Shown: positions 23,580 through 44,377 of the stretch, one piece after another
How positions within the stretch are numbered: position 1 is the first letter of the stretch
Layout of the letters: every line of letters starts with the position of its first letter
Assembly (NCBI GenBank): GCA_027484965.1
Contig: JAIXRY010000006.1
Location: 130,101 to 194,100 of the forward strand
Length of the DNA stretch: 64,000 bases
From: a bacterium
Lineage (GTDB): Bacteria; Patescibacteriota; Minisyncoccia; Phycocordibacterales; UBA9973
Direction: 5' to 3'
Position numbers and translations under genes: made by a program
Notes under the pieces: model-generated
The model's database searches: none
The model's input: the letters and a program-made list of their open reading frames with translations, nothing else
Told to the model about the DNA's origin: nothing

Positions 23580-23596
23580 ATTAAAATTCTACCATA

Positions 23597-24372: not shown

Positions 24373-24903
24373 TTAACATTCAAACATCTTCATCCATACC
24401 TTACGAAGCAAACAGGCATCGCCAAGAGCATTATGTAGCTCAAACTCAGATAGATCTACCCCTATTTCTTTGTAGAATATGTCGGCCCCTTCAGTATCTG
24501 GAAGAAACAAATATGGATTACGCCCCATACCAAAAAGAATAGATGAGAAATCAACAGTCATCCAGTTAAAGGGGAGTTCATCTTCGGCGAACAATTTATC
24601 CGAATAGATTTTGTCGTAATTATCAACAAATGCTACAGCGAATGGTTTAACAGATCCAATAAATCCTTTTATTATTTTTACAGCTTCTACTCTTGACACT
24701 TTTGGTTCCTTGAGTTTAGGAATGATATGTTGCCTAGTCCAATCATCCACTGGGCCGTCATATTCGAGTTCAAGATAGAGGGATTCGCCACTGACTTTAA
24801 TAGCTCCAAACGAAAGAATTTCGCCTAAGTATGGGTTAAGGCTTGAAAATTCAGTGTCAAAAAACAATAAATTGTCTGACACAAAGCTTTTTAACTTTTG
24901 CAT
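24373..24903 (-). CDS. DEDDh 3'-5' exonuclease (DnaQ/RNase T-like)
   Basis: Exo I-like FFDTEFSSLNPYLGEILSFGA and Exo III-like HNALGDACLLRKVW. Confidence 0.5.
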   Translation of the reverse strand: MQKLKSFVSDNLLFFDTEFSSLNPYLGEILSFGAIKVSGESLYLELEYDGPVDDWTRQHIIPKLKEPKVSRVEAVKIIKGFIGSVKPFAVAFVDNYDKIYSDKLFAEDELPFNWMTVDFSSILFGMGRNPYLFLPDTEGADIFYKEIGVDLSEFELHNALGDACLLRKVWMKMFEC

Positions 24904-24952
24904 TATTTAATTTTTTTTTAAAATTCAATATATAATACTACAAAAAATAAAT

Positions 24953-25894: not shown

Positions 25895-25913
25895 TAAGAC
25901 TATTATATCCCAG

Positions 25914-26000
25914 GTTTGAATTTATACTAAGGTATAAAAAATATACCTTAGTATGTAAGACTTTTCTATGATGCTCCGAATGTGGGAGGATGTTCGAAAA
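25914..26000. repeat. intergenic repeat family copy R11 (full length, alternative central hairpin)
   Basis: GGTTTGAATTTATACTAAGGTATAaaaaaTATACCTTAGTatgtaagacttttctatgatGCTCCGAAtgtgggaggatgTTCGAAaag. Confidence 0.75.
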
Positions 26001-26133
26001 GTAATTATTAAAGAATAATAGTCAAAATAAATAAATGCCATTTTAATACAAAACCCAAATATCTAAATATAATGTATATTTTTATATATCTAAAGCAATC
26101 AATTCAAACCTCAGCTTATGTTATAATTATCTA

Positions 26134-28041: not shown

Positions 28042-28266
28042 TTAATCAAATAATCCTTTTTCTTTTAAGCATTCTGAATAACTTTTACCAATAGAACCAT
28101 CCTTATTTTCGTAAATCATTTTATCCCAATTTATTTTTCGAGTACTAGATATTTTATGGCAATTTTTTTTAATTTGCATAGGTCTTAATTCATACCAATA
28201 AAAAGCACCTGAAATTAAGATAAAGATGATTATAATTATTCCTTTGAATTCTTTTATTTTTTTCAT
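28042..28266 (-). CDS. small membrane protein (74 aa)
   Basis: ORF with one TM. Confidence 0.35.
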   Translation of the reverse strand: MKKIKEFKGIIIIIFILISGAFYWYELRPMQIKKNCHKISSTRKINWDKMIYENKDGSIGKSYSECLKEKGLFD

Positions 28267-28282
28267 TATTTAATAGTTTAAA

Positions 28283-29011
28283 TTATTGTACAGATTTTTT
28301 ACTTCCAAAAGCTATGTACAAAACAACTTTATAGTAAAAAATTAAGATAAATATAAAAGAAATTATTATCACTATAAATGGTAATAAAATATTTATAGTG
28401 GTATTTAAAATAGATATTTTATATATATTCAAATCTTTTACTTCACTATTATAAAATAAAATATTTTCTGTTTTTATTATTTTATCAGAATTAATTACAG
28501 GAGTGCTGGATTTATTCCAATCATAATCACTGATAGAATGTTTTTTATCAACAATGTTTAAAACACTTAATTTAACACATTTAGCCTTGTGTTGGTAAAG
28601 ACCTTCCTTAAATTCTTTAATACCAACAGAAGTATCTCCAAAAACATAAGAATTAATATTAAGATCTTGTTCAATTTTTTCTATATTTTTAGAAATATCG
28701 CTAGAACAATAGTAATCTAAAGCTGAAATTGACCCCTGATCTGATATGTAGCCAATTTTATTGTTATATATAATTTCTTTATCTTCTGTATTTACAAGAT
28801 ATTTTATGTGTTTATATGTTTCAGCAACTCTTTCAGACAGTATATCTGTTTCTTTATATTTAATTATTTTATCATTACCATACAAATCTAAAGCTGTAAG
28901 AGTGGTTGTAATAATAAATAACAACACAAACAAAACAGAGAGTAGCCGGTGCCACCATTTTTTGTTTAAATCTAAGTCATTTCTTAATAGTTTTGTAAGA
29001 TGTTTTTTCAT
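28283..29011 (-). CDS. membrane protein (242 aa; N- and C-terminal TM helices)
   Basis: ORF; overlaps helicase gene end by 4 nt. Confidence 0.4.
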   Translation of the reverse strand: MKKHLTKLLRNDLDLNKKWWHRLLSVLFVLLFIITTTLTALDLYGNDKIIKYKETDILSERVAETYKHIKYLVNTEDKEIIYNNKIGYISDQGSISALDYYCSSDISKNIEKIEQDLNINSYVFGDTSVGIKEFKEGLYQHKAKCVKLSVLNIVDKKHSISDYDWNKSSTPVINSDKIIKTENILFYNSEVKDLNIYKISILNTTINILLPFIVIIISFIFILIFYYKVVLYIAFGSKKSVQ

Positions 29012-32000
29012 AAATTATTTTTAATATTATTTACTATAAGTTCTTTGTTATCATCACTCTCTATCCACTCTGAGTATCCAATTCTAAAGAATGACCAACC
29101 AGCACTTTCAAGTACTCGCTGTCTTTGTATATCACTTTCAACATAAATACCATAAGCTTCATCTATATGATCTTTAAAGTGAGTTGGGCCATCACATTCA
29201 ATAGCTAGTTGTTTACCAGTGCTTAAGTTTGTTGCAACAAAATCAATCTTGAAACCACAACTCTCTACTTGATTTTGGATAGTATACCCCTTACCCAGTT
29301 TTTTCTTTAATAGATGATAGAATTCTTCTTCAAAATAACTATCAAACTTCTTAAGTATAAGTTTTGAGGCTGATACCTCTCCGTTATCTCTAACATACTC
29401 TAGGTATTTTTTTATCCAAATGCCAGAAGGTACTTTTTCTACAGGTAAACTCAAAATACAATGTACTTGTAGCTTCGCACGAGAGAATGCAACATTTACT
29501 CTACCAGCATTTATATCAGCTTGTATATCACCAGTTTCGCCAGTGAGAGGGCGATACTGCCTTTTTTGAGAAGGATCTCTTATAACAAAAGAATATATAA
29601 TAATATCTTTCTCGTCTCCTTGTATACCTTCGATGACTGAAATTTTTAACCTATCCCCCTCTTTTATTCTGTTGTCTTCAAAGACTTTTCTAATCAGCTC
29701 TGCTTGATCGTTAAAGAATGTAAGAACACCAAAAGTCTTACCTTCGTACTTTGGATCATTAACCATTTCTTGATATAGACTTAAAGCTTTAAGAGCTTCA
29801 GCGTAGTTAGTATTATCACTTATTTCTCCTACACCAGTATTTTCAATATTATGAATAACCATTATGCGGTTAGTATCTTGATATGTTAAATATTTATTAT
29901 TTAAAGCTATCAAACGCTTACCTTTAGGCTCGTAAAAATATTTATTACTAAATCCTATAAGTTCCATTGGGGAACGATAATGATATTGAAGTATTTTTGG
30001 TATACCAAATCTAGTTTTTGCAATATCTAGAACAGATTGCACAGCTGTGCCTGTAGGTTTTATCTGTAGACTTTCTGGTACTTTGTAACGACTAGCAAGT
30101 TGATCAAATGCTTGATTTGATTTAAACATAACAGTACTATCTCTCATTTGTTCTGGATCTCCAACAAATATAGCTTTTTTTGCTCTGTACATTGAAGGTA
30201 TTGTATAAGCAATATTACACTGAGACGCCTCGTCAAAGACTACGTAATCAAACAAGTTAGCCACTAGGGGTATGAGACGACTAGCGTCGTCTAGATCCAT
30301 AATCCAAATAGGCACTATGTTTAATATAGTTTCAAAGTTTGAGGGATCGTTTTTTAATTTATCAAAAGTTTTAAAAGCTTTCTTTGATTTTTTAAATGCT
30401 TTTTGTAGCTCTTGAAGTTTTCTCCATATTTTTACCTGTGAGGCATTTTTATTTATATTGTCTTCAATAATTGCAGATAAGTATTGAGAAATGATTTCTT
30501 TTCTACTAATTTGATTCTTATCAGTTACTTCTTTTTTTAGTTTAGATATTTCATTAATTAGATTGTTTTGATTGTGATTTAAAGTAATTCTTTCTGATAG
30601 TTTCTCTAATAATTCTGAAACTGTAAGGGACTTATCTTTCAAAAAACTAAATAGATTAGAAATTTCATCTTTTGAGAGTTCTAGATTTGTCTCTATTTCT
30701 ACGAGCGACTTCTCTAATTTCTCGTTTTCAATAATTAGTTCCCAATATGTACAAAAACCTAGAAGTTCCTCTAGTTCTTTTATTGCATTATGTCTAGAAA
30801 TATCTTTTGATAAAACACTGTTTATTTCATCATATATCTCTTTAGGTAATCGACTTAAGTGTTCTTTAAGTCGTAACTTTCTACTAAAATTATTTATGTA
30901 TCTTCCTAGATTAAAAGATCTATCAAAACCTGTTTTTTTAACATCAACAATAACTGTTTTAATCAAATCTGAAAAAGTATAATCTGAAAAAATTTCTTTT
31001 TCTAATGAATATCTTTTTGAAATACTTTCTAAGTCTTTTAAGAATTTATTATTTTGAGATATTTTTTCTTCTGTTTTTAAATACAATCTATATAAATCAT
31101 CAGTAAAATTAGTTAATATAGTCTGCTCACTTATATCTGGAAGTCCTTCTAAAAAAATATACTCTTTTTTCTTTTCTTCAATTTCGTACACACTTCGTTG
31201 TAAAGAAATAACTTTATCTCTTTTAGTAAGACTATTATTAATATTTTGAGTGAAGTCATCTAAGTTTACACTATCTTTTGAAATACCTTTATAAGCACCA
31301 TATGTATCTAGTGAAGATAATTGAGAAGATATTGTGTCTGCCTCCTCATCATTTACTTGCTCAAACTTCACACTAGGAATATATCCGAACAATAGAGGTA
31401 CCTCAAGTGTCTTAAGTTTATCTTTTACAACACGCAAAGCTTGAGGTTTTTGACTTACGAAGAGTACTTTATTTTTATTAACAGCTAAGTGTGAGATTAT
31501 GTTAGAAATAGTCTCTGATTTACCTGTACCTGGAGGCCCTTGTATAATAGAGGCTTTATTGCCTAAAAGAGTGGTGGTGGCCCGTTGAAATTTGTCGTAT
31601 GGAAATGGAAAGTATAGAGCTTTTTCTTCACAAACATCAGAGTTTACATTCAAACCTTCTTCTGAAAACCAACCCGATAACGATGTATCCTCTAAAAGTT
31701 CTTCCTTTTCTCTTGATAGTTTTGTAAGATCTTCAACAAGAAAGAAGTTTGCTCGTGGAGCAAGTGTTAGTCTTAAATCTTCAAGATTAAACGATTCTTC
31801 ATTAAATGTCGCATCTGTCAGTCTTAGTTTTGCTTTAAGCATGTGCCACAAATCTAAAAATATTTGTTCAGAAGAAATAGGTATAGAAAATCCACCATCA
31901 CTTTCTAGTTTTACATAATCATTTAAAAACTCGTAAACCAAATCTTCTTTTTTGTAAGTTCTAAATATTTCATAAAGAGGAGGTAAATTGAGACGAACTT

Positions 32001-32577
32001 CAAAATCAACAGGTACTACAGAGTATATGTCTATATTGTTTTTATCCTTTTCTTTCTCAACTCTAACCGGCAGTGAAAATAAATAAAATTGTTTTGATAC
32101 TAATTTTACTACTTCTTTTTCCTCAGTATTTTGTTTAATTTCTATATCTTCTTCCGTTTCAACTACTGCTTCTTCTAATACCTCAAAATCAAAACGACCA
32201 AAACGTAGTATGGTCTCTTTAGTGAAAGTATCATTTTTAGCTTTGCTATACACTTCATCTATTTGTAAAGCAAGATTTTTTTCTAATTTGTATTGATCAG
32301 CTATTTCCTCAGTAACATCTTTAGGGTCTGTGTTGTAATAGCAGTCGAGATTAACAATTTCTTTTAAGTTACCATCTATATCTCCATTAATAAGACTAGG
32401 TAAAGAGAAGTATTTTTGTGGTAATTTAACATCAATTGCAGTACCTCTATTAAAACCAGTTGGTTTTGTAAGACTAAGATATCCTAGACAATATTTAATA
32501 TACGAATTAAGTGAGAAGTTCATAATGATAATTATAGCAAAAAAAACCCTAAAGATGGAGTAGAAAGAACGACTCAC
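29008..32577 (-). CDS. superfamily-1 (Upf1/DNA2-like) helicase with long coiled-coil insertion, fused to C-terminal DUF559 endonuclease-like domain
   Basis: Walker A IIQGPPGTGKSETISN, Walker B VVFDEASQ ~430 aa later, motif YRSPMELIGFSN (AAA_12), C-terminal GFKIDFVATN...AIECDGPTHF...ESAGWSFFRIGYSEW (DUF559/Vsr-like fold). Confidence 0.75.
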   Translation of the reverse strand: MSRSFYSIFRVFFAIIIIMNFSLNSYIKYCLGYLSLTKPTGFNRGTAIDVKLPQKYFSLPSLINGDIDGNLKEIVNLDCYYNTDPKDVTEEIADQYKLEKNLALQIDEVYSKAKNDTFTKETILRFGRFDFEVLEEAVVETEEDIEIKQNTEEKEVVKLVSKQFYLFSLPVRVEKEKDKNNIDIYSVVPVDFEVRLNLPPLYEIFRTYKKEDLVYEFLNDYVKLESDGGFSIPISSEQIFLDLWHMLKAKLRLTDATFNEESFNLEDLRLTLAPRANFFLVEDLTKLSREKEELLEDTSLSGWFSEEGLNVNSDVCEEKALYFPFPYDKFQRATTTLLGNKASIIQGPPGTGKSETISNIISHLAVNKNKVLFVSQKPQALRVVKDKLKTLEVPLLFGYIPSVKFEQVNDEEADTISSQLSSLDTYGAYKGISKDSVNLDDFTQNINNSLTKRDKVISLQRSVYEIEEKKKEYIFLEGLPDISEQTILTNFTDDLYRLYLKTEEKISQNNKFLKDLESISKRYSLEKEIFSDYTFSDLIKTVIVDVKKTGFDRSFNLGRYINNFSRKLRLKEHLSRLPKEIYDEINSVLSKDISRHNAIKELEELLGFCTYWELIIENEKLEKSLVEIETNLELSKDEISNLFSFLKDKSLTVSELLEKLSERITLNHNQNNLINEISKLKKEVTDKNQISRKEIISQYLSAIIEDNINKNASQVKIWRKLQELQKAFKKSKKAFKTFDKLKNDPSNFETILNIVPIWIMDLDDASRLIPLVANLFDYVVFDEASQCNIAYTIPSMYRAKKAIFVGDPEQMRDSTVMFKSNQAFDQLASRYKVPESLQIKPTGTAVQSVLDIAKTRFGIPKILQYHYRSPMELIGFSNKYFYEPKGKRLIALNNKYLTYQDTNRIMVIHNIENTGVGEISDNTNYAEALKALSLYQEMVNDPKYEGKTFGVLTFFNDQAELIRKVFEDNRIKEGDRLKISVIEGIQGDEKDIIIYSFVIRDPSQKRQYRPLTGETGDIQADINAGRVNVAFSRAKLQVHCILSLPVEKVPSGIWIKKYLEYVRDNGEVSASKLILKKFDSYFEEEFYHLLKKKLGKGYTIQNQVESCGFKIDFVATNLSTGKQLAIECDGPTHFKDHIDEAYGIYVESDIQRQRVLESAGWSFFRIGYSEWIESDDNKELIVNNIKNNL

Positions 32578-32590
32578 AAGACACTATTCT

Positions 32591-33112
32591 TTAGTATTTA
32601 AAAGCGGTACTTTTTTCAATTTTACTTAAATCAGATATATTTAAAATTTCATTTTTTGATTGTTTTTCTTTTAGATATTTACAGATAACTTCATCATCTT
32701 CTATCAAAACAATAAACTGTGGTAAAAAAGATTCTGAAAGAATTTTGTAAGCGCTTTTGCTCGGACAATGATTCATAACGAGACCTATATATCCTAACCA
32801 ATCAGGAAACTTAGTAACCACTTGAATATCTGTCAGCTTTGCTTCTACCACAATAGAGACTAATTTAATTTGATTTTCTTCACTTGTGTTTCTAAGGAAG
32901 TTACTATAATCATTCATTTCCTTTAGAGATGAGTTATTTTCTTTACCATTAGGCCAAAAAGAAGTATGGTCTGGATGCACACCTTGAATTAGTTTAGAAA
33001 AAGAAACTTTAAAAGCGTTGTGTCCACAAGTTGTACAATTTATATTCCAGCACCAATTATTTTGTGAGGCTATTTCACATAGGGCTACAAATGAGTTTCT
33101 TTGTTTTTTCAT
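32591..33112 (-). CDS. Cys-rich small protein (WCWNINCTTCGH), partner of the helicase-nuclease
   Basis: 13-nt gap to helicase gene. Confidence 0.45.
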   Translation of the reverse strand: MKKQRNSFVALCEIASQNNWCWNINCTTCGHNAFKVSFSKLIQGVHPDHTSFWPNGKENNSSLKEMNDYSNFLRNTSEENQIKLVSIVVEAKLTDIQVVTKFPDWLGYIGLVMNHCPSKSAYKILSESFLPQFIVLIEDDEVICKYLKEKQSKNEILNISDLSKIEKSTAFKY

Positions 33113-33147
33113 TATTGTTTATTTTTATTAATTTTCTATTATAAATT

Positions 33148-33180
33148 TTTAAGCTTTTCAACGCTTTGTAACGCTTTGTA
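33148..33180. promoter_or_regulatory. direct repeats (aacgctttgt)x3 plus nearby palindrome tagtagtttttactact in the helicase operon upstream region
   Basis: Seen directly; operator/iteron-like. Confidence 0.35.
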
Positions 33181-33318
33181 ACGCTTTTGAACCAAACTTT
33201 TTTCACTACTTTTTAGTAGTTTTTACTACTTTCTAATCACATTTTTTAATGTTAATTACTGTTAATTAATGTTTTCTATTGTTTTTGAAACAAGTATTTT
33301 GCAATATAAATTAATTTA

Positions 33319-33921
33319 TTAGACAACTTGTAAAAGTGTAGAGAATACGAAATGCATTCTATGGTTTTGAAACATGAAATTTGGATACATAAGCAACTCA
33401 AGAGCCATAATATATTCTTTGTTATAACCTATAAGATCGGCTATTTTATCTAAAAAACGTGCACCAACCGCATTGTTACCAATATTCAAAGGTTTGAACA
33501 TTAAACTATATATAGGATATGAGAGATAATCTTCGTATAGTTCATCAAATAACTCTTCTGCATTTAGAGAATATTTTTCTGTTGCATAAGATAATATATT
33601 TGATTTTAAGAATATATATTGTTCGTTTGTTAGATATTTATCTATTACAACACTTCTAAGTCTCTCTAAAATACATAAATTGGATACAAAAGTATATAAC
33701 TCAACTTTATTCCTTAATTCCCTATTATCTTCTTTAACATAGTGATAGAAAAGCTGATTTGTAAAGTCTAAAGACATACACGAAAGAATACCTGAAATAA
33801 TATTACTCTTTTCAATTAGAGCAGATTCAGAATTGTTTGAACCTTTAAGCTTTGAAATACCCTCTTCTATGTAGTACATTCTAAAACTATCTTTAATAGA
33901 CATTGATTTTTCTTTAGACAT
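33319..33921 (-). CDS. hypothetical protein (200 aa), third gene of a three-gene operon
   Basis: 4-nt gap to upstream gene. Confidence 0.45.
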   Translation of the reverse strand: MSKEKSMSIKDSFRMYYIEEGISKLKGSNNSESALIEKSNIISGILSCMSLDFTNQLFYHYVKEDNRELRNKVELYTFVSNLCILERLRSVVIDKYLTNEQYIFLKSNILSYATEKYSLNAEELFDELYEDYLSYPIYSLMFKPLNIGNNAVGARFLDKIADLIGYNKEYIMALELLMYPNFMFQNHRMHFVFSTLLQVV

Positions 33922-33924
33922 ATA

Positions 33925-34536
33925 TTATTTCTTACCTGAAGATTTAATTTCATGAAAACGATCTATTATCATATATCCAAGTGCAACCAATCTATCAGAA
34001 GGTTTAATCCATAGTTGTTTTTGAAATTTATCAGAATTGAAACTAAAAGTATTTAAAGAATTTTCTAAAATAGATAATTTATTATCTATCACCTCTTTTT
34101 TATATGTATAGTAATTTATAGACTCTCGCAGACCATCCATCAACATAATTCTATAGTCTTGGTCTTTACAGTGTTTTGTTATGTTTGGGAATTTTTCAGG
34201 ATTCAATTCATCAAGATATGTAAAGATATAATTCTCTTCTTCCTGTATATTTTTATATTCTTCATCTCTTTCACCATTTACATATCCTTCATCGTAAATA
34301 TGCTTTACACTTTCTTTTAGAGAAGAAACTATAGACTTGGTTATAATAAAAAATATAAGGAATATTGAAGCTAGAGATATAGAGCCAAATATCAATATAT
34401 TTTTAATACTAGTAAAATCAGAAGAGTTTATAACTAGAAAAGATATAGCGAGACAAGGTATTATCAGAAATAAAAATACAAATGATAGTATGTTTAATTT
34501 CTTTATTGTTCTATCTACTCCTCTTAAAATATACAT
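33925..34536 (-). CDS. membrane protein (203 aa, two N-terminal TM helices)
   Basis: ORF. Confidence 0.45.
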   Translation of the reverse strand: MYILRGVDRTIKKLNILSFVFLFLIIPCLAISFLVINSSDFTSIKNILIFGSISLASIFLIFFIITKSIVSSLKESVKHIYDEGYVNGERDEEYKNIQEEENYIFTYLDELNPEKFPNITKHCKDQDYRIMLMDGLRESINYYTYKKEVIDNKLSILENSLNTFSFNSDKFQKQLWIKPSDRLVALGYMIIDRFHEIKSSGKK

Positions 34537-34567
34537 ATTTGTATTCTTAGCTAATGTTATTAATTAT

Positions 34568-35173
34568 TTATGTAAAATTACCAGCAAGTTTTACTTTTTT
34601 AATTTTCTCAATATGATCAAATGGTCTAACAAACTTAGAACGATCTACAACAATTTCTTCATATTTTTTTGCAATTCTAACACCTAGAGTACCCCCTATT
34701 TGATCTTCAATTGGTTTTGATAGTCCGAAAGGAAAATCTGAGTCAAAAGAATTTACACCGTATCCAATCAAAGACCTACTAAAAATCTCATGGAAATCAC
34801 TGAAAACATATCCTTCAGGAATATTTATTGATCTACGAGGATGGTACATGTCTAAATAAAGAATGTCCCACACATTTCCTCCACAGGAAACGACTTCGTA
34901 TATATCTATATTTCCATCAGATCCAAGTCTGTGAAATATAAGCCCACCTTCATCAGTACGCAGTCTATTTAGATATTTAATTTCACCAATTGGCCCATTA
35001 ACGGGTACAGGATTTGTAGCAACTTTTCCAAATTCCCCTTTTGCGTTTGGTAGAACATTACAATCTAGACCATTAATAGATTCTTTACTTAGAAAATCTG
35101 GAAATCTTTCTAGATCTTTGATTTGATCTTCAATAGATTCGTCTTTAAATTTTTTCTTAAAAAAATTAAACAT
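34568..35173 (-). CDS. hypothetical protein (201 aa), first gene of the three-gene operon
   Basis: ORF. Confidence 0.45.
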   Translation of the reverse strand: MFNFFKKKFKDESIEDQIKDLERFPDFLSKESINGLDCNVLPNAKGEFGKVATNPVPVNGPIGEIKYLNRLRTDEGGLIFHRLGSDGNIDIYEVVSCGGNVWDILYLDMYHPRRSINIPEGYVFSDFHEIFSRSLIGYGVNSFDSDFPFGLSKPIEDQIGGTLGVRIAKKYEEIVVDRSKFVRPFDHIEKIKKVKLAGNFT

Positions 35174-35414
35174 ATTTTATAGTTTATTTAACAATTAAAA
35201 ATCACAATCTTGTTCCCATCGGCAAGAAGCACTGTTATCATGTTGCGGTAATGAATCTCTAAAACTTTGTGAAAATATAGATAAAAATAAAAATATAATA
35301 TTTACAAAAACTATTACAAACATAACAACATTATCGAATGATATAGATTTTAATAATTTATTATTTTTCATAAAAGTTTAAAGAATTAGCTAATAACCCT
35401 GCAATAGTGTTCCA

Positions 35415-35600
35415 AACAAAAATCCCATCACAAGGGTGATAGCTTTCGCTATCCATGCAAGTTTCCTTGCACGGCCGATCAGAGCAAGCCCTTTATGATG
35501 GGGTTTTTGCTCTGATCGGACTTTCGACCATATCCTATATATAAATATAGGGGTTAGGTCTCGTATTAAGTTGTAGTGTAATTATATATTATTTCTTATA
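35415..35600 (+). ncRNA. candidate structured 5' leader/cis-regulatory RNA, copy A
   Basis: ~75-80% identical to the reverse complement of 43030..43255; perfect 13-bp stem ccgatcagagcaa/ttgctctgatcgg and stem gatagc/gctatc whose counterparts in copy B carry fully compensatory changes; ends ~12 nt before ATG 35612. Confidence 0.55.
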
Positions 35601-36479: not shown

Positions 36480-36707
36480 TTGTCTCAAAAACTTATACAT
36501 TCGTTTACATTTAATCAGTTGAGTAACAATGGAGTTGTGCAACTATCAGACAAAGCAATTAAAGATCTACGAAATGAACTCATAAACAAATATGGGAGCG
36601 ATTTTAATTTGTCTGATCAGGAGCTAAATGAAATAGGATTATTACTTCTCACTTGTCTAGCTGAGAGTTTAAAACTTGAAGTTAGCAAGAAGAATAAATT
36701 CCTATAG
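36480..36707 (+). CDS. doubtful small ORF (TTG start flush against terminator)
   Basis: No ATG, no RBS space. Confidence 0.2.
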   Translation: MSQKLIHSFTFNQLSNNGVVQLSDKAIKDLRNELINKYGSDFNLSDQELNEIGLLLLTCLAESLKLEVSKKNKFL

Positions 36708-36709
36708 GA

Positions 36710-37075
36710 ATAGATACTGAGAGGATTAGGTAGGCGAACTCTATAAGCCCCCTCTTGGACGCCATTAAATTATAGAGACTTCATAGTCTAGATGCCTAGA
36801 GACAGCATTCTCTAGCCTCGGGAATAAGGAGACAAGCGGGACAAACAGGAACATTGTAAAACTATAATCCTGCCCGACACCATATAACTACGCACGTGAG
36901 GTAATGGTTAAAGCACGGTAAGAGTGACTTTTATGTAGGGAAAATATAGTTTCTGCGTTTGAAGCAAGAGTAAAAAGAATTGCTGAGCAGTTAGGTATAA
37001 AAGTTTTATTTCATAGGCTTTTAGTCTTTCTTTTTCCTCAAAAATAAGTTAGGAGGTATTCCGGTTAAAAATTTT
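36710..37075. ncRNA. GC-elevated ~360-nt non-coding stretch with nested palindromes, candidate structured RNA
   Basis: tctagatgcctaga, ctagaga...tctctag, no ORF, GC clearly above flanks. Confidence 0.3.
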
Positions 37076-37104
37076 ATTATAAGTTAACTTTAAAATTACA
37101 AATT

Positions 37105-37350
37105 ATGAAAAGTATAGAAAAGAGATTTAAGAAAATAGAAAAAAATAATAAGTTTTTAGGATCTTGTGTGGTTTTAGCAAAAGCCGTAGAAGGACAAAAT
37201 TTTGAACAAAGTGCAATAACAAGAGCTTTCGGTAAATTAGTACCAAAAGATGAATATTTAAGAAAAGAAAGAAGAGGTATAATAAAGTTCTTGACCAATC
37301 TTTCAACCCCCCTTGAGGACGACACGATAATGAAGAAAAATGACCTATAA
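37105..37350 (+). CDS. hypothetical small protein (81 aa)
   Basis: ORF with ATG. Confidence 0.35.
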   Translation: MKSIEKRFKKIEKNNKFLGSCVVLAKAVEGQNFEQSAITRAFGKLVPKDEYLRKERRGIIKFLTNLSTPLEDDTIMKKNDL

Positions 37351-37446
37351 GGAGTGTTAAATAGCAAATTTGACACGACGTACCAGTGACACAAAAAAAA
37401 TTCTTAGAAATGAAAAAATCTTGTAAATATGATAAAGTATAAGAGC

Positions 37447-37542
37447 TACACCAAAGGAAATATAAAAATGCATATCTAGATATTGTTTTAATGCATTTTT
37501 GTATATAAAAACGAGGTAATGACTTTCCTTTGGTGTAGCAAC
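37447..37542. promoter_or_regulatory. perfect 16-bp inverted repeat gctacaccaaaggaaa...tttcctttggtgtagc (plus gaggtaa/ttacctc) immediately upstream of serine recombinase gene
   Basis: Seen directly; candidate recombination/att site or operator. Confidence 0.4.
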
Positions 37543-37576
37543 TAAAAGCAACGTCGTTACCTCATTTTTATTTATT

Positions 37577-39370
37577 ATGGACAAAAACAATTTTGACGCA
37601 GAAAAATTAAATTATATTATCTACTGTCGTAAATCAAGTGATACAGAGGATAAACAAGTTCAATCACTTGAGACTCAACATAGAGAATTAACAGATTATG
37701 CATTACGCAATAATCTTAATGTTGTAAAAATTATTCAAGAAAGTAAAAGTGCTTTCACTGTTGGTAGACAAGGTTTTGAAGAAATGCTTAAACTTATAAA
37801 GAGTAAAAAAGCAAATGCAATTTTAGTTGTTCGAGCAAATCGTATTTCAAGAAATGTTATGGATTCTGCATATATTATTTCTCTTATGGATGAGAAAATG
37901 TTGATGTATGTTAGAACTCCTTCATCTTCATGTTATACCTGTTTCGGTAACGATAGATTTATGCTTGGTCTAGAATTTATTATTTCCAAGAAAGATAGTG
38001 ATGATAAAGGTGAAGCTGTAAAAGAAGGACAAAAAACAAAAGCGTTAAAAGGAACCCCTCACGGATTAGCTTCTTTAGGCTTTCTTAATGATCGATCAGA
38101 AGAAAAAGGAAATAGAAAATGGTTAGTAGATCCAGAGAGACTATGGAAAATAGAGAAGCTTTTAAAAATGTTCCTGACTGGTACATACTCTGCTGGTAAA
38201 CTACATAGATACGCGATAAATGAGCTCAAATTAACCACTGTTAGTAGAAAAAGAAGTGGTGGTGCTCTAATAGTAAGTTCCCGTATTTATGAAATTTTAA
38301 AAGATCCTATCTATGCAGGATTCTTTGTTTATGGAGAAAAAAGATACGAATTAGATAAAAATTTACCTAGACTTATAACAGAATCTGAACACAATAAAAT
38401 TAAACAATTACTCTCTAGAAATAACATTCCTAAATCACAACACCATGAAGCTACATATTCTGGATTTATACAGTCTGCTGAAGGAAACTTTATGGGGCCT
38501 GATACTAAGTTTCAAGTAATATGTGATTGTAAGAAAAAGTTTGCATACAGAAATAAAAATCACTGTCCTCAATGTGGAATTAACATTGATCAAATGGAGA
38601 GTCCTAAATACTTGGATTACACTCACTACTACAATGTTAAGAGAAAGAAGGCTTCTCTACCATATAAGTCTATTTCAGAAAAAGATATTCTAAAAGAAAT
38701 GGTTGAATATATTGACCAAAATTTACAGTTTTCCAACGATCTCTTGGAGTGGTCTAAAAAAAATATACACGAAATGAAAGACAAAGAAGTGAGCGAAAAA
38801 GTTTTAATATCAAAAGACAGAGAGAACAGAAAAGAAGAATATGAATTAAAGAAATCTAAATTGAGAGGGTTACTTCGTGATGATAAAATTATAGAAGACG
38901 ATTATAAAATTGATCTAGCACTATTGAATAAAGAATATGCTGATATAAACATAGATGCGCAGAGTGTCGATTGGTATCAAGAGATGATGGATATCACTGA
39001 TTTAACTCAAGGTGTTATAGAAGTATTACAAAACGGCTCCTTTCAAGCAAAAAGAGATATACTTTCAAAGCTTGGTTCGAACCTAGTATGGAACGACGAA
39101 AAACTTAGTATTTACAACAGAAAATCAATAGAAGTACTTGTGAAAGGGATAAAAGGTATTAAGTCAGAATTTCCAAAGTTCGAACCTAAATTAAGCTTTG
39201 CAGAACAAGGCTTAAATGAAAAAACTAGCGAGTTTTCGCCAGTTTTTTCTACAATGCTCCATCTAGTGGACAAGTTCAGAACTGCTAATTGGACTGGTAT
39301 TAAAAGTGATTTACAGTTTAGTGGTGTTTTAGAGCTGTTAACTTCAGAATCAATAGATTGCTTACTTTAG
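37577..39370 (+). CDS. large serine recombinase (resolvase catalytic domain + recombinase domain + zinc ribbon)
   Basis: YIIYCRKSSDTEDKQVQSLETQ catalytic-Ser motif; CDCKKKF...HCPQCG zinc ribbon; 597 aa. Confidence 0.8.
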   Translation: MDKNNFDAEKLNYIIYCRKSSDTEDKQVQSLETQHRELTDYALRNNLNVVKIIQESKSAFTVGRQGFEEMLKLIKSKKANAILVVRANRISRNVMDSAYIISLMDEKMLMYVRTPSSSCYTCFGNDRFMLGLEFIISKKDSDDKGEAVKEGQKTKALKGTPHGLASLGFLNDRSEEKGNRKWLVDPERLWKIEKLLKMFLTGTYSAGKLHRYAINELKLTTVSRKRSGGALIVSSRIYEILKDPIYAGFFVYGEKRYELDKNLPRLITESEHNKIKQLLSRNNIPKSQHHEATYSGFIQSAEGNFMGPDTKFQVICDCKKKFAYRNKNHCPQCGINIDQMESPKYLDYTHYYNVKRKKASLPYKSISEKDILKEMVEYIDQNLQFSNDLLEWSKKNIHEMKDKEVSEKVLISKDRENRKEEYELKKSKLRGLLRDDKIIEDDYKIDLALLNKEYADINIDAQSVDWYQEMMDITDLTQGVIEVLQNGSFQAKRDILSKLGSNLVWNDEKLSIYNRKSIEVLVKGIKGIKSEFPKFEPKLSFAEQGLNEKTSEFSPVFSTMLHLVDKFRTANWTGIKSDLQFSGVLELLTSESIDCLL

Positions 39371-41569: not shown

Positions 41570-43009
41570 TTAATATCTATCATTTTGATCTTTAATATAT
41601 TTTTTTTGTTTTATGTATTCGATCAAAAGATCACAGAATAAAGATTCCTCATTGCCTTCTGCTACAGTAATAAAATCTGAACCTGTTATATCTTGACTTA
41701 TTGCATATTTATTCCAAGTTATAATAGGATTTGATTCACTAGGCATTTGTACACCAAAAGACTTTAGCATTGTAACTATATATTTACCATAAGGCATTCG
41801 TTTGCCTGTTTTTAATTTAGATTTTTTTATAATTTCTAATTTTTCTAAAAAAACATTAGTATTTGAAAAACTGTGTATAGCTATTTTTATCGCAATGTTA
41901 AATATTTTTTGAAAATTATCAGCAAAATGATCTTCATAATAACTACCTTTTTTTAATTCAGTTAATTGATACCTAGTTGCTTTTAATAATGATCTTAAAT
42001 TTACGATCTCATAGTTAACTGATTGTGAAAATATATACCAAAGAAAAAGCTTGATGTATCCACTATCTGCAATTGCTGGGGATAAATTAGGCTCCTCATT
42101 TTTTATATTCCTAGATATCTCTTCAACCATACTTAATACTGCTTTTTTATTGTCAAAATAAAATGGACTTATAGTAAAAAATTTATCCATATAACCCGAG
42201 AAATCAGTATTGGATCCGTATCTATGATGAAAAAAATGTTTTAAATTTGTATAATCTCCAACTATAATTATTAAATCAAAGCCGAATTTGTTTTCGTGTT
42301 CTTTTTCAAAATAAGAAGATAATATATTTAATATTCTAAATACGTGTTCTGGGTCTAATCTATCTAAATCATCTAAAATTAAGATACTTTTTTTATCTTG
42401 TTTTTCTAGTTTAATTTTTTCCCGTAATAAATGACTAAAAAAATCCGTCTCAGAGATATTTTTCTTTTTTACCTCTTTAATATATTCTTCAACTAAAGCT
42501 TTTTCTCCACCGATATAATCTTCCTTAAACTTTTGAAATTTTTTATCTAATTCAAGTAAATCTTTTAAAGATTTGCCTAATTTTCCAACAAAACCAGATA
42601 TTGGATTTGGAATCATACCAGAAAAAGATTCGCCTAAAGATAGTGATTGTTGAAGTGCAGAATTTAATGAAATATTATCTTTAGCCCAAGAATAAAAAAG
42701 GAGGGATGATTCTTCAATTCCATTGACTTCATTCGTTGTAAAAATATTATTATTCTTTTTCATAAGTTCAACAAGAATATCGTATTTAATCAATTCCAAA
42801 ATATCTTCATTACTACTAATCTGATAGTTGATTGGGTACAAGTGAAAAACTTCATAATTATTTTTTTTCAATTCAAAAAATTCATTTAAAAAATATGTTT
42901 TACCCACACCAAATTGACCAGAAAAAAATATTCTGGAATTTTCTTCCATATTTAAAAAGGATTCAAAATCACCCAATACACTATCAATCGGTATCTTAAT
43001 ATTTGACAT
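41570..43009 (-). CDS. KAP-family P-loop NTPase
   Basis: Walker A SGQFGVGKTYFLNEF and hallmark Walker B ILILDDLDRLDPEHVF. Confidence 0.7.
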   Translation of the reverse strand: MSNIKIPIDSVLGDFESFLNMEENSRIFFSGQFGVGKTYFLNEFFELKKNNYEVFHLYPINYQISSNEDILELIKYDILVELMKKNNNIFTTNEVNGIEESSLLFYSWAKDNISLNSALQQSLSLGESFSGMIPNPISGFVGKLGKSLKDLLELDKKFQKFKEDYIGGEKALVEEYIKEVKKKNISETDFFSHLLREKIKLEKQDKKSILILDDLDRLDPEHVFRILNILSSYFEKEHENKFGFDLIIIVGDYTNLKHFFHHRYGSNTDFSGYMDKFFTISPFYFDNKKAVLSMVEEISRNIKNEEPNLSPAIADSGYIKLFLWYIFSQSVNYEIVNLRSLLKATRYQLTELKKGSYYEDHFADNFQKIFNIAIKIAIHSFSNTNVFLEKLEIIKKSKLKTGKRMPYGKYIVTMLKSFGVQMPSESNPIITWNKYAISQDITGSDFITVAEGNEESLFCDLLIEYIKQKKYIKDQNDRY

Positions 43010-43029
43010 AATTACAATAATATCATTTT

Positions 43030-43255
43030 AAAAAACTTAAGTTAAGAACAATTTATGATATAATGATTACACAACTCAATAAGAGACCTACCCCTTAGAG
43101 AATCTCTAAGGCACGGTCGCAAGATAGTCCAACCAAGACAAAAACCCCATCATATAGGGCTGTCTTGGTTGGCTACATCGGGAAACTGGTGTAAAGAGCG
43201 CAAGCTCTTACCCTTGTGGTGGGATTTTTGTCGCCCAAATACACAAAGGATTATA
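43030..43255 (-). ncRNA. candidate structured 5' leader/cis-regulatory RNA, copy B (inverted relative to copy A)
   Basis: Stem ccaaccaagaca/tgtcttggttgg with conserved loop gccctatatgatggggttt; ends ~20 nt before start 43009. Confidence 0.55.
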
Positions 43256-43273
43256 ACCCAACCAAGCAATCCT

Positions 43274-44377
43274 ATGAAAAATAAAATTAACATTGTTTTT
43301 GTATTTTTACTCCTAATAATTTTAATACCTCAAGTAACATATGCTTCGTGGTGGAATCCATTAACGTGGAAAATATTTAAAAAAACACCACAACAGCAAT
43401 CTATTCAAATCACTACTCCTAATTCTTCTACAAAAGATGATGAATTAACTACAGAAAATTCAGAATGGAGCTTTTCTAAAAATACTAATAAATCAAAATC
43501 TATTGAATTTTTAGAAACATTAAAAAAAGAAAAAAATACCAGTGACGTAAAAAGTAAAAAAGACACTTTTACTCAAAGCGATATAGATCAGTATAAATCA
43601 AAGGCAACTGAAATAATCGAACTCATTCAAAAAGATAAAACGGATTTTGAAAATCTTAAAAAGATAATGGTGGAGCATAAGCAAAAAACCACTGATACAG
43701 CTAATGACCTTTTTAAGAAGTATAGTGATCTCTATGATTCTGCTTCGTTATCAAGAAGCAATACAGATAAAGACTATTTAATGGCTGGTAAAAAATATGT
43801 TTCATCTAGTCTTGACGAGGTGCTTAAGAAAATTGAAAAATATAATTCTCTGATTGATTTTTATACTTTCAATTCTGTTCAAAATAAAGATGTCAGTGAA
43901 GTTATTGAATCTAATATAAATATACTTAAAAAATGTACAGGAATGTCTCTTGAGCAGTGGTCAAAAGATTCCGATTGCACTATGCAGTCTTTAGAGTTTG
44001 CTACAGAAGATCACACCTCCAATCAGAAGACACTGAGCGATGCACAAAAATCACTTAAAGAAATTGATACTCTTTCGCTTAATCTCATTAAGAGCAAACT
44101 AGATTCCATTGATGACGACTTAACTTCAAGAAAAGAGAGTTTATCTTTGTCAGACCAAATACAAGCACGAGGCAGTAACTTTACTATTCCACCATATCAA
44201 GCTCCTGTTACAGCACCAAAATTAACCTGCACAACAACAGCTACTGGGGGTATTTTTAATAAAGAATATAAAACAACTTGTTTACCAGAGACACCTAGAA
44301 CACCAGAACAAATATGTGCTAGTAAAAAAGCACACGCTGCTGCAATAGGATCATACACTAAGGTGATTTGTGATTAA
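43274..44377 (+). CDS. secreted hypothetical protein
   Basis: Start moved to MKNKINIVFVFLLLIILIPQVTYA (signal peptide) because upstream extension overlaps the conserved leader element. Confidence 0.5.
   Translation: MKNKINIVFVFLLLIILIPQVTYASWWNPLTWKIFKKTPQQQSIQITTPNSSTKDDELTTENSEWSFSKNTNKSKSIEFLETLKKEKNTSDVKSKKDTFTQSDIDQYKSKATEIIELIQKDKTDFENLKKIMVEHKQKTTDTANDLFKKYSDLYDSASLSRSNTDKDYLMAGKKYVSSSLDEVLKKIEKYNSLIDFYTFNSVQNKDVSEVIESNINILKKCTGMSLEQWSKDSDCTMQSLEFATEDHTSNQKTLSDAQKSLKEIDTLSLNLIKSKLDSIDDDLTSRKESLSLSDQIQARGSNFTIPPYQAPVTAPKLTCTTTATGGIFNKEYKTTCLPETPRTPEQICASKKAHAAAIGSYTKVICD

What the first reader, a model, noticed from the sequence alone, without database searches (positions are those of the whole stretch)
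35415..35600. Covarying structured ~200-nt element present twice, in inverted orientation, as the 5' leader of two different operons
Positions 35415-35600 (+) and 43030-43255 (-) align over ~190 nt at ~75-80% identity. Each ends 12-20 nt before a start codon (35612 on +, 43009 on -). Two helices show fully compensatory substitutions between the copies:
- ccgatcagagcaa/ttgctctgatcgg versus ccaaccaagaca/tgtcttggttgg, around a conserved loop gcccttTatgatggggttt.
- gatagc-tttc-gctatc versus aagagc-ttgc-gctctt.

Stem covariation with loop conservation is the classical signature of a functional RNA structure rather than drifting duplicated DNA. Both downstream operons are in a defence/mobile context, one unknown and one KAP NTPase with a HEPN-like gene. 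The element may be a riboswitch-like or protein-bound regulatory leader, or a small RNA gene. Strand of function is not determined by sequence alone.
Basis: seen in the sequence. Interest (0 to 1): 0.8.

Follow-up and report, generated by a model that had tools for sequence, protein, structure and literature searches.

The report
Known LOOT RNA, read on wrong strand
The repeated structured element is real, but it is two copies of the already catalogued LOOT RNA (Rfam RF03000) lying on the strand opposite to the one assumed; comparison with eight related copies suggests it is a switchable leader controlling the outward-facing cargo operons of a mobile element in a candidate-phyla-radiation (Patescibacteria) bacterium.

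Summary
The two regions align at 79% identity, and 13 base pairs change on both sides while staying paired.

Both copies are full-length matches to the known Rfam family LOOT (RF03000; 91 and 76 bits against a threshold of 46). So they are not leaders of the ORFs at 35612(+) and 43009(-). They point outward, away from those ORFs.

Eight further LOOT copies were recovered from metagenomic and viral contigs. All ten lie within about 7 kb of a large serine recombinase gene, on integrative elements. The host chromosome looks Patescibacterial.

Features outside the Rfam model:
- A -10 box 6 nt before a conserved ACAAC in 8 of 10 copies.
- A co-oriented gene after every copy, 21-48 nt away in the seven copies measured apart from copy A (245 nt).
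- A 3' tail that pairs with the apex of the long hairpin: 21 pairs, 19 of them covarying. It includes the U-tract and cannot form together with the hairpin stem.
- In five of ten copies, complementarity between the hairpin's 3' strand and the downstream start-codon region.

Best reading: a cis-acting bistable leader. This is inferred, not shown. The family is known; the context and the switch are new leads.

The parts
35581..35586 (-). LOOT-A promoter -10 box (TATAAT), 6 nt before the conserved ACAAC
   Evidence: Sequence. The promoter scan lists TTTAAA-17-TATAAT at 35609-35581 on the minus strand. A TAnnnT hexamer sits at the same 6-nt spacing in 8 of 10 copies. Coordinates.
35564..35574 (-). 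Conserved 5' leader ACAACUUAAUA of LOOT-A (predicted transcript start region; lies outside the Rfam model)
   Evidence: Conserved in A, B and L128 (alignment) and recognisable in all ten copies. Coordinates.
35438..35560 (-). LOOT-A core: full-length match to Rfam RF03000 (helices P1-P5, two GAAA tetraloops)
   Evidence: cmscan 91.4 bits, gathering threshold 46.4, E = 4e-16, model positions 1-121 of 121. All 42 pairs form.
35489..35512 (-). LOOT-A apex of hairpin P3 (GAGCAAAAACCCCAUCAUAAAGGG), which is the 5' strand of the alternative long-range helix P7
   Evidence: RNAalifold consensus. Duplex energy -26.1 kcal/mol, reached by 0 of 500 shuffles. P7 covariation. Coordinates.
35414..35436 (-). 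LOOT-A 3' tail (CCCUUGUGAUGGGAUUUUUGUUU): the 3' strand of P7, including the U-tract; lies outside the Rfam model
   Evidence: Flagged as terminator-like. Complementary to the apex. P3-forced and P7-forced folds are -63.7 and -61.2 kcal/mol.
28042..35173 (-). Operon downstream of LOOT-A on the same strand: proteins of 201, 203, 200 and 173 aa, a 1189-aa SF1 helicase with a restriction-endonuclease-like domain (PDC-S37/Hhe-like), then 242 and 74 aa
   Evidence: ORFs. Pfam and PADLOC matches. The first start codon is 245 nt after the U-tract.
35209..35223 (-). Weak copy of the LOOT-A P3 5' strand (GCCGAUGGGAACAAG), followed by a UUGUGAUUUUU tail-like segment, 36 nt before the 201-aa gene start
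   Evidence: RNAduplex with the P3 3' strand gives -12.6 kcal/mol; 2% of shuffles reach this.
43059..43064 (+). LOOT-B promoter -10 box (TATAAT preceded by TGA, an extended -10), 6 nt before ACAAC
   Evidence: Sequence. Alignment. Coordinates.
43071..43081 (+). Conserved 5' leader ACAACUCAAUA of LOOT-B
43085..43209 (+). LOOT-B core: full-length match to Rfam RF03000
   Evidence: cmscan 76.1 bits, gathering threshold 46.4, E = 1.6e-12, model positions 1-121 of 121.
43136..43159 (+). LOOT-B apex of P3, which is the 5' strand of P7
   Evidence: Duplex with the tail gives -29.7 kcal/mol, reached by 0 of 500 shuffles. Coordinates.
43211..43233 (+). LOOT-B 3' tail with U-tract, which is the 3' strand of P7
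   Evidence: P3-forced and P7-forced folds are -63.3 and -63.0 kcal/mol.
43257..43269 (+). Segment CCCAACCAAGCAA, a near-copy of the P3 5' strand; it is complementary to the LOOT-B P3 3' strand and ends 4 nt before the start codon at 43274 (helix P8)
   Evidence: RNAduplex -15.1 kcal/mol; 1.3% of shuffles reach this. Cognate pairings beat non-cognate ones across ten copies, permutation p < 5e-5.
43274..44377 (+). First gene downstream of LOOT-B: a 367-aa protein with a signal peptide and no family match. Co-oriented genes follow, up to the recombinase at 50443-52026.
36480..39370 (+). Recombinase module between the two LOOT copies: two conserved small proteins (75 aa at 36480-36707, 81 aa at 37105-37350) and a 597-aa large serine recombinase (37577-39370)
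   Evidence: Pfam Resolvase and Recombinase domains. Homologues of the small proteins precede the recombinase in L144, L146 and L148. Recombinase homologues carry Nomurabacteria, Parcubacteria and Paceibacterota names.

Best explanation
The element is two copies of the LOOT RNA motif (Rfam RF03000), encoded on the minus strand at about 35574-35414 and on the plus strand at about 43071-43233. The genome is that of a Patescibacteria (candidate phyla radiation) bacterium, and the copies sit inside a mobile and defence island built from large-serine-recombinase integrative elements.

Shown:
- Family membership, strand and covarying helices.
- Carriage on serine-recombinase elements.
- A conserved promoter-like -10 box.
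- A conserved 3' tail that covaries with the apex of hairpin P3.

Inferred mechanism. Each copy is transcribed outward from its own sigma-70-type promoter as the 5' leader of the operon that follows it (35173 leftward; 43274 rightward). It acts in cis as a bistable switch.
- In the Rfam fold, the P3 stem is closed. The tail and the start-codon region are free, so transcription reads through and the first gene is translated.
- Alternatively, the P3 apex pairs with the 3' tail to form a helix of about 21 bp (P7) that runs into the U-tract. This would act as an intrinsic terminator.
- In about half of the copies, the freed P3 3' strand can also pair with the 10-14 nt just upstream of the start codon (P8), which would block translation initiation.

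The signal that chooses between the folds is unknown. It could be a metabolite, an element-encoded protein, or RNA polymerase itself.
For: Identity and strand:
- Full-length Rfam hits at 91.4 and 76.1 bits against a threshold of 46.4, on the minus strand for A and the plus strand for B.
- An independent copy scores 100.6 bits on the LOOT strand and 20.3 on the other.
- GAAA tetraloops and G-U pairs exist only on this strand.
- Folds are more stable on this strand in the three copies tested, A, B and L122.

Transcription unit:
- A TAnnnT hexamer lies 6 nt before the conserved ACAAC in 8 of 10 copies.
- A U-tract follows directly.

Cis role:
- 10 of 10 copies have a co-oriented gene downstream. 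The measured gaps from the U-tract are 21-48 nt for B, C, D, E, F and L128 and 245 nt for A; in H, I and J the start codon lies within the 80-nt flank.
- The P3 3' strand is complementary to the segment ending 0-4 nt before the ATG in B, F, H, I and J (-13 to -23.5 kcal/mol). Cognate pairings beat non-cognate ones, permutation p < 5e-5.

Bistability:
- P7 has 21 pairs, 97.1% of cells paired, 19 pairs with changes on both sides, 0 of 500 shuffles reaching this, and slid controls at 47-57%.
- P3 has 10 of 12 pairs compensated in seven copies.
- P3-forced and P7-forced energies differ by 0.3-10 kcal/mol, and either one is the minimum depending on the copy.
- Cognate apex:tail duplexes give -20 to -35 kcal/mol and are better than non-cognate ones in the diverged copies.

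Context:
- In L128, LOOT lies on a 3.0-kb insertion (LOOT, a staphylococcal-type nuclease gene, a serine recombinase gene) at the 3' end of tRNA-Gly. The insertion is absent from relatives.
- All ten copies, in eight elements, lie within about 7 kb of a large serine recombinase.
- Named homologues of the host enolase are Nomurabacteria, Paceibacterota and Minisyncoccia.
Against: - There are no expression data, so the promoter, transcript ends and read-through are all predictions.
- The genes downstream of LOOT are unrelated to one another. No common regulated function points to a ligand.
- P8 is absent or weak in A, C, D and E.
- The gap after LOOT-A is 245 nt, which leaves room for an independent promoter.
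- The short AT-rich spacers often contain -10-like hexamers. Promoter-like matches occur at chance frequency in this AT-rich DNA (46 found against 47.9 expected), so separate promoters or leaderless mRNAs cannot be excluded.
- The P7 alignment was anchored by hand on the pairing (N used for bulges), which favours the structure.
- That P3 and P7 exclude each other rests on a steric argument and on predicted energies, not on probing.
- Ten copies from eight elements is a small sample, and the copies are related.
- Rfam and its source study type LOOT as an sRNA gene.
Confidence: 0.55

Rival explanations
1. Stand-alone, trans-acting small RNA genes, as Rfam types the family. Each LOOT copy would be made from its own promoter and ended by its own terminator, with P7 serving only as the terminator or 3' structure. 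The RNA would act elsewhere, on mRNAs or on a protein encoded by the element or the host.
For: Rfam types RF03000 as 'Gene; sRNA'. Each copy has its own -10 box and a U-tract. The downstream genes are unrelated to one another. The apex loop and the 5' leader are strongly conserved, as a seed or protein-binding site would be. Copy A is 245 nt from the next gene.
Against: A plain terminator does not need a 21-bp long-range helix that competes with a covarying stem of the same RNA. 10 of 10 copies are co-oriented with a downstream gene, and the measured gaps of 21-48 nt leave little room for another promoter. The P3 3' strand covaries with the start-codon region of the adjacent gene in five copies, which is a cis relationship.
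Confidence: 0.27
2. A processive antitermination element of the put/nut kind. The LOOT RNA would stay bound to the RNA polymerase that made it, alone or with an element-encoded factor, and let the polymerase read through downstream terminators in the two outward operons. This resembles putL/putR of phage HK022 or nutL/nutR of lambda. It is a special case of the cis-acting reading.
For: Two homologous RNAs lie in inverted orientation, point outward from the recombinase module, sit close to a promoter and are followed by a terminator-like site. This holds in the window and again in L146. Conserved small proteins are encoded next to the recombinase. The properties of put and nut elements are from my own knowledge, not from a paper read here.
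Against: There is no sequence or structural similarity to put (two stem-loops of about 70 nt). Six of the eight elements carry only one LOOT. The covarying P7 and P8 helices are not explained by binding to RNA polymerase. In L146 both copies sit in the middle of co-oriented gene strings, not next to a divergent promoter.
Confidence: 0.1
3. One reading: the element is the 5' leader, on the other strand, of the ORFs at 35612(+) and 43009(-, KAP NTPase).
For: The conserved block ends 15 and 38 nt before those start codons. A promoter-like match exists on the minus strand at 43278-43250. Both strands fold well, because most pairs are Watson-Crick.
Against: Rfam matches the opposite strand only. 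The tetraloops would read UUUC. Conserved U-G pairs in P4 and P7 would become A-C mismatches. The conserved -10 box and the U-tract belong to the LOOT strand in 8 of 10 and 10 of 10 copies. In other elements the divergent genes are unrelated to one another, and L128 has no divergent gene at all. Promoter-like matches occur at chance frequency in this AT-rich DNA.
Confidence: 0.02
4. A DNA-level feature: the two copies are terminal inverted repeats or recombination or inversion sites of a 7.5-kb mobile segment carrying the serine recombinase.
For: An inverted pair flanks a recombinase gene in the window and in L146.
Against: The arms are only 79% identical, and the differences are compensatory within each arm. 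That is selection on a single-stranded fold, not on a protein-binding duplex. G-U pairs are conserved. Six of the eight elements have a single copy. In L128 the copy lies 330 nt inside the insertion, and the junction is at the tRNA. Near-identical assemblies show the same orientation, with no inverted variant.
Confidence: 0.03

Closest known systems
LOOT RNA motif (Rfam RF03000; Weinberg et al. 2017, Nucleic Acids Res 45:10811, PMC5737381; shown in the Rfam 14 paper, PMC7779021)
   Same: Both window copies and all eight relatives match the model end to end above its gathering score. They share the same five or six helices, the GNRA tetraloops, the conserved CCUAA...GCAUGG junction and the A-rich linker.
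   Different: Rfam types the family as an sRNA gene, and the Rfam 14 paper calls it a metagenomic-based RNA. From my memory of its public description, it had no assigned organism. Here the copies are placed in Patescibacteria chromosomes and on serine-recombinase integrative or viral elements. They carry features outside the model: a -10 box, an ACAAC leader, a 3' tail that covaries with the P3 apex (P7), and a P3 look-alike at the next start codon (P8). Whether the Rfam seed sequences also have these could not be checked.
Terminator/antiterminator leaders (transcription-attenuating riboswitches, T-box leaders and protein-dependent attenuators)
   Same: A structured 5' domain, then a U-tract whose upstream helix competes with a helix of the folded domain. 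A second alternative pairing covers the translation start region.
   Different: No ligand or binding protein is known. The regulated genes are unrelated cargo genes of a mobile element, not one pathway. The terminator helix is long-range, enclosing P4 and P5, rather than a local hairpin.
putL/putR of phage HK022 and nutL/nutR of lambda (antitermination RNA sites)
   Same: Paired homologous RNA elements on a mobile element, in inverted orientation, pointing outward from the integration and regulation module, each followed by a terminator.
   Different: No similarity in sequence or fold. Most elements carry only one LOOT. No test of RNA polymerase binding was possible. This comparison rests on my own knowledge of those systems.
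Other structured RNAs of unknown function found on mobile elements by the same comparative approach (for example ROOL and GOLLD)
   Same: Orphan structured RNAs with strong covariation, found mainly in metagenomes and on phage-like or mobile DNA (one search lists the papers).
   Different: LOOT is small (about 150 nt). No multimeric assembly is known or was tested. Its position before genes suggests cis regulation.

Membership tests
LOOT RNA (Rfam RF03000) | Score at or above the family's curated gathering threshold (46.4 bits) with the Rfam covariance model, over the full model length | tested here: met
   A scores 91.4 bits and B 76.1 bits, both over positions 1-121 of 121. The relatives score 76-95 bits.
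LOOT RNA (Rfam RF03000) | Consensus secondary structure (P1/P2, long hairpin P3, two tetraloop hairpins) kept by compensatory changes | tested here: met
   42 of 42 pairs form in A and B, with 13 double changes. In seven copies 96.9% of cells are paired and 31 pairs show double changes.
LOOT RNA (Rfam RF03000) | GNRA tetraloops on the modelled strand | tested here: met
   The P4 loop is GAAA in A, B and the eight relatives. The P5 loop is GAAA or GCAA in A, B, L128 and E, and UUCG-like in some others.
LOOT RNA (Rfam RF03000) | Acts in trans as a small RNA (the type given by Rfam) | tested here: inconclusive
   An own promoter and a U-tract fit this type. Co-oriented adjacent genes and the covarying P7 and P8 helices point to cis action instead. 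No expression data are available.
Riboswitch or attenuator-type cis-regulatory leader | Located in the 5' untranslated region of the regulated gene, on the same strand | tested here: met
   10 of 10 copies are followed by a co-oriented gene. The measured gaps are 21-48 nt for six copies and 245 nt for A, and a -10 box lies upstream of the RNA. That LOOT and the gene share one transcript is inferred.
Riboswitch or attenuator-type cis-regulatory leader | Mutually exclusive conserved helices, one of which forms a terminator or hides the translation start | tested here: met
   P3 and P7 both covary and have similar predicted energies. P8 is present in five of ten copies. This was tested by computation only.
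Riboswitch or attenuator-type cis-regulatory leader | A defined ligand or binding factor, and a coherent set of regulated genes | tested here: not met
   The downstream genes are unrelated: nucleases, secreted proteins, unknowns and a helicase operon. Ligand binding cannot be tested with these tools.
put-type processive antitermination RNA | Two-stem-loop put fold and direct modification of RNA polymerase | not testable with these tools
   There is no put family hit in Rfam at the permissive threshold. The LOOT fold has six helices. RNA polymerase binding cannot be tested here.
Terminal inverted repeats or recombination sites of a mobile element | Near-identical inverted DNA repeats lying exactly at the ends of the element | tested here: not met
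   Identity is 79%, with compensatory differences. Six of the eight elements have a single copy. In L128 the copy lies 330 nt inside the 3.0-kb insertion, whose junction is the 3' end of tRNA-Gly.

The most novel reading that the evidence does not exclude
LOOT is not a free small RNA. It is a widespread cis-acting three-state riboregulator used by integrative elements and phages of Patescibacteria to gate their cargo and defence operons. The folded LOOT domain would be the ON state, a long-range apex:tail helix would be the terminator, and a P3-3':start-codon helix would block translation. The choice of state would be set by a signal still unknown: a metabolite, an element-encoded small protein, or the polymerase. 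If so, an orphan metagenomic RNA becomes a new class of riboswitch-like leader, and the first regulatory RNA mechanism proposed for mobile elements of candidate-phyla-radiation bacteria.
Probability: 0.4. Interest if true: 0.7.

Novelty: new member of a known kind. Interest (0 to 1): 0.45.

Why it matters
What this analysis adds could still be useful.

LOOT has been an orphan motif known from lake and ocean metagenomes, with no published function. Here it gets:
- A probable host group, Patescibacteria.
- A genetic vehicle: small integrative elements and viral contigs carrying large serine recombinases that insert at tRNA genes.
- A transcription unit.
- Two covarying alternative helices outside the Rfam model, which turn "sRNA of unknown function" into a concrete hypothesis that can be tested by mutation.

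If that hypothesis holds, it would show how mobile elements of these small-genome bacteria switch cargo and defence operons on and off. It would also give RNA biologists a compact bistable RNA of about 160 nt to study.

Tried and rejected
1. The genome-contig scan with AACCCCATCATN{2,5}GGGC was too degenerate.
2. Viral scans with the apex block, the tail block and a P4/P5 pattern of the A/B subfamily found nothing. A later pattern taken from copies C and E found three.
3. The metagenome scan with the apex block gave one true LOOT (L122) and four matches that Rfam does not call LOOT.
4. I first read the tail as a local terminator hairpin (CCC-loop-GGG). I dropped this because copy F has no such hairpin while its complementarity to the P3 apex is kept.
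5. I tested whether the genes downstream of, or divergent from, LOOT are homologous. They are not. Only two small protein families next to the recombinase are conserved.
6. Pfam, PHROGs and PADLOC gave no match to the proteins next to LOOT.
7. A recombinase-based search of viral contigs gave three loci without LOOT.
8. The Kaiserbacteria locus L158 and the Nomurabacteria locus L144 have no LOOT. In L144 the contig ends 1.7 kb upstream of the recombinase.
9. The supplement of the LOOT source paper is not held in the library, so its original description could not be read.
10. Near-identical assemblies show no alternative arrangement of the 7.5-kb segment.
Full report
**1. Observation**

The two regions are real repeats in inverted orientation. 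A local alignment pairs 35416-35597 (+) with 43231-43047 (-), giving 139 identities in 176 ungapped columns, or 79%. MAFFT over wider flanks gives 77%. The repeat finder also reports the pair (I2, I3).

On a seven-helix structure, 42 of 42 pairs are standard in both copies. 13 pairs differ on both sides and 3 differ by a G-U wobble. None of 500 shuffles reaches this, and slid controls give 22-41% paired.

**2. Identity**

A scan of the whole window against Rfam 15 at gathering thresholds gives two hits to RF03000, LOOT RNA, both full length (positions 1-121 of 121):
- 35560-35438 on the minus strand: 91.4 bits, E = 4e-16.
- 43085-43209 on the plus strand: 76.1 bits, E = 1.6e-12.

The family threshold is 46.4 bits. 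The only other hit is tRNA-Asn at 60105-60177.

LOOT comes from the comparative study of Weinberg et al. 2017 (PMC5737381). The main text held in the library does not mention LOOT by name, and its supplement is not held. LOOT is shown as a "metagenomic-based RNA" in the Rfam 14 paper (PMC7779021). Rivas 2020 (PMC7657543) notes its many covarying positions, and Rfam 15 refined its structure (PMC11701678). From memory, the public description says it was known only from lake and ocean metagenomes, with no assigned organism, and was presumed to act in trans. I found no paper on its function.

**3. Strand**

- The Rfam match is strand-specific.
- The P4 and P5 loops read GAAA or GCAA on this strand, and UUUC on the other.
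- The single-sided changes between A and B are G-U wobbles.
- For an independent copy, a model built from A and B scores 100.6 bits on the LOOT strand against 20.3 on the other.
- Folding is somewhat better on the LOOT strand in the three copies tested: z = -8.2 against -6.5, -6.2 against -5.9, and -4.6 against -3.4.

So the copies point away from the ORFs at 35612(+) and 43009(-). They point toward the gene strings that start at 35173(-) and 43274(+).

**4. Genomic setting in the window**

The window is chromosomal, with about 30% G+C. It carries pyruvate kinase, enolase and glycerate kinase at 3-8.4 kb. Named homologues of the enolase (68-70% identity) are almost all Candidatus Nomurabacteria, Paceibacterota or Minisyncoccia. 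The host is therefore a Patescibacteria (candidate phyla radiation) bacterium.

From about 28 to 60 kb lies a mobile and defence island:
- An SF1 helicase with a restriction-endonuclease-like domain (PDC-S37/Hhe-like, 29008-32577).
- A KAP NTPase (41570-43009).
- A weak AbiU2-like HEPN protein.
- Two Dcm methyltransferases.
- A protein whose N-terminal ~100 residues weakly resemble QatA (55 bits, far below the model's cutoff).
- Three large serine recombinases (37577-39370, 50443-52026, 58546-60117) and one recombinase fragment (48080-48604).
- tRNA-Asn.

The same arrangement is found in near-identical assemblies.

**5. Related copies**

A metagenome scan with the apex block found one more LOOT (L122, extended as L128). 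Comparison with a relative (L131) shows that L128 8659-11659 is a 3.0-kb insertion at the 3' end of tRNA-Gly(TCC). It consists of 330 nt, then LOOT(+), then a staphylococcal-type nuclease gene, then a 540-aa serine recombinase whose stop codon overlaps the tRNA. Five relatives have the same flanking gene next to a tRNA and no LOOT. LOOT is therefore cargo of a small integrative element.

Homologues of the window's 597-aa recombinase are abundant in Parcubacteria-type genomes. Of five loci with enough upstream sequence, four carry LOOT:

| Locus | LOOT copies |
|---|---|
| window | two (A, B) |
| L146 | two, again inverted and pointing outward around the recombinase |
| L148 | one |
| L155 | one |
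| L158 (Kaiserbacteria) | none |

A pattern taken from copies C and E found three more on IMG/VR viral contigs that carry ParB-methyltransferase, terminase-like and serine recombinase genes. All eight extra copies pass Rfam's own threshold.

In six of the eight elements the layout is the same. One LOOT heads, or sits in, a leftward cargo gene string. A divergent rightward string ends in the recombinase, usually next to a tRNA. Two small protein families precede the recombinase in several elements.

**6. Features outside the Rfam model**

(a) Promoter and leader. A TAnnnT hexamer (TATAAT three times, plus TATACT, TATTAT, TAGGAT, TACAAT and TATCAT) lies exactly 6 nt before a conserved ACAAC/ACAAU in 8 of 10 copies. 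A conserved leader ACAACUnAAUA follows.

(b) Downstream gene. All ten copies are followed by a co-oriented gene. Measured from the U-tract, the gaps are 21-48 nt for B, C, D, E, F and L128 and 245 nt for copy A. In H, I and J the start codon lies within the 80-nt flank shown. These genes are unrelated to one another.

(c) Helix P7. A 3' tail ending in a U-tract is complementary to the apex of the long hairpin P3. RNAalifold proposed this helix on its own.
- Cognate duplexes give -20 to -35 kcal/mol, reached by 0 of 500 shuffles.
- They beat non-cognate combinations in the diverged copies.
- They are weaker on the opposite strand in 6 of 7 copies.
- On an ungapped, hand-anchored alignment of ten copies, P7 has 21 pairs, 97.1% of cells paired and 19 pairs with changes on both sides. 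None of 500 shuffles reaches this, and slid controls give 47-57% paired with 2-4 such pairs (seven copies).
- The helix contains conserved U-G pairs and extends into the A-tract/U-tract, where A-U changes to G-C in D and E.

P3 itself has 10 of 12 pairs compensated.

A hairpin loop closed by a 12-bp stem cannot form about 20 bp with an outside strand, so P3 and P7 must alternate. This is a steric argument of my own. Forced-fold energies are close, and either fold is the minimum depending on the copy:

| Copy | P3-forced (kcal/mol) | P7-forced (kcal/mol) |
|---|---|---|
| A | -63.7 | -61.2 |
| B | -63.3 | -63.0 |
| C | -58.6 | -56.8 |
| D | -51.9 | -59.6 |
| E | -64.6 | -66.7 |
| F | -50.3 | -58.7 |
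| L128 | -59.2 | -49.0 |

(d) Helix P8. In B, F, H, I and J the 10-14 nt that end 0-4 nt before the downstream start codon are a near-copy of the P3 5' strand. They are therefore complementary to the P3 3' strand (-13 to -23.5 kcal/mol). This segment changes together with P3 from copy to copy. Cognate pairings beat non-cognate ones in a permutation test, p < 5e-5. The pairing is moderate in L128 and absent in A, C, D and E.

**7. Most likely mechanism (inferred)**

LOOT is transcribed from its own promoter as the leader of the operon behind it, and it can take alternative folds.
- With P3 closed (the Rfam fold), the tail and the start region are free. Transcription reads through and the first gene is translated.
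- If the apex pairs with the tail (P7), a strong helix sits directly on the U-tract. That is the geometry of an intrinsic terminator.
- After read-through, the P3 3' strand can instead cover the start region (P8).

The conserved core may be the sensor: the P1/P2 junction CCUAA...GCAUGG, the A-rich linker and the two tetraloop hairpins. The signal is unknown.

In the window this would put two operons under LOOT control: the helicase-nuclease operon (35173 to about 28042, minus strand) and the rightward cargo string (from 43274, plus strand). I give this reading about 0.55.

The main rival, at about 0.27, is a free small RNA for which P7 is only the terminator. A put/nut-like antitermination role (about 0.1) is a variant of the cis reading; it is suggested by the outward-facing pairs in the window and in L146.

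**8. Novelty and verdict**

New here, as leads rather than facts, are:
- The host group.
- The link with serine-recombinase integrative and viral elements (ten of ten copies).
- The transcription unit.
- The covarying P7 and P8 helices, which argue for a cis-acting switch.

I file it as a new member of a known kind, with moderate interest.

Noticed in passing
window 15815-26018: Nine copies of an intergenic repeat of about 100 nt. Each has the outer arms GGTTCGAACTT...AAGTTCGGA and a central palindrome AAAAATCACCTTAnAGATTAAGGTGATTTTT. They are spaced 440-1300 nt apart and separate short, mutually unrelated ORFs that are mostly on the minus strand. This looks like a gene-cassette array with attC-like or terminator-like repeats. 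Rfam gives no hit at gathering threshold.
   Followed up: partly
window 58546-60117 with tRNA-Asn 60105-60177; also L128 10048-11670 with tRNA-Gly 11658-11731, L144 1767-3461 with tRNA 3450-3521, and L155 10001-11701 with tRNA 11690-11761: The 3' end of the large serine recombinase gene overlaps the 3' end of a tRNA gene on the opposite strand by about 10-13 nt. These elements seem to insert into tRNA genes and to supply the tRNA's 3' end from the recombinase reading frame.
   Followed up: partly
window 36480-36707 and 37105-37350: Two small proteins (75 and 81 aa) upstream of the 597-aa recombinase have homologues in the same position in L144, L146 and L148 (33-61% identity). They have no Pfam or PHROGs family. 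They could be recombination directionality factors or regulators.
   Followed up: partly
window 48080-48604: A 174-aa ORF is a fragment of a serine recombinase, 56% identical to residues 116-271 of the recombinase at 50443-52026. It is probably a remnant of an earlier insertion in the island.
   Followed up: partly
window 35190-35223 (minus strand): GCCGATGGGAACAAGATTGTGATTTTT is a degenerate copy of the LOOT-A P3 5' strand followed by a tail-like UUGUGAUUUUU. It lies 17-50 nt before the start of the 201-aa gene. It may be the counterpart of the start-region segment seen in other copies, or a decayed partial duplicate.
   Followed up: partly
window 3392-3730 and 8802-9140: A 339-nt inverted repeat at 71% complementarity. 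One arm is inside the pyruvate kinase gene (minus strand) and the other inside the 265-aa ORF at 8409-9206 (plus strand). It probably reflects a shared protein domain.
   Followed up: no
window 4545-4643: A tandem repeat with a 12-nt period (GTTCCAGTTGTT, about 8 copies) inside the ORF at 4422-4796.
   Followed up: no
L146 1-21728: The element carrying LOOT copies C and D is abundant: its recombinase is indexed in 68 blocks of the collection. It encodes an S49/head-maturation-like protease, a DNA methyltransferase, a DEAD helicase and a Prim-Pol primase. It may be a prophage or a phage-like plasmid of Patescibacteria.
   Followed up: partly
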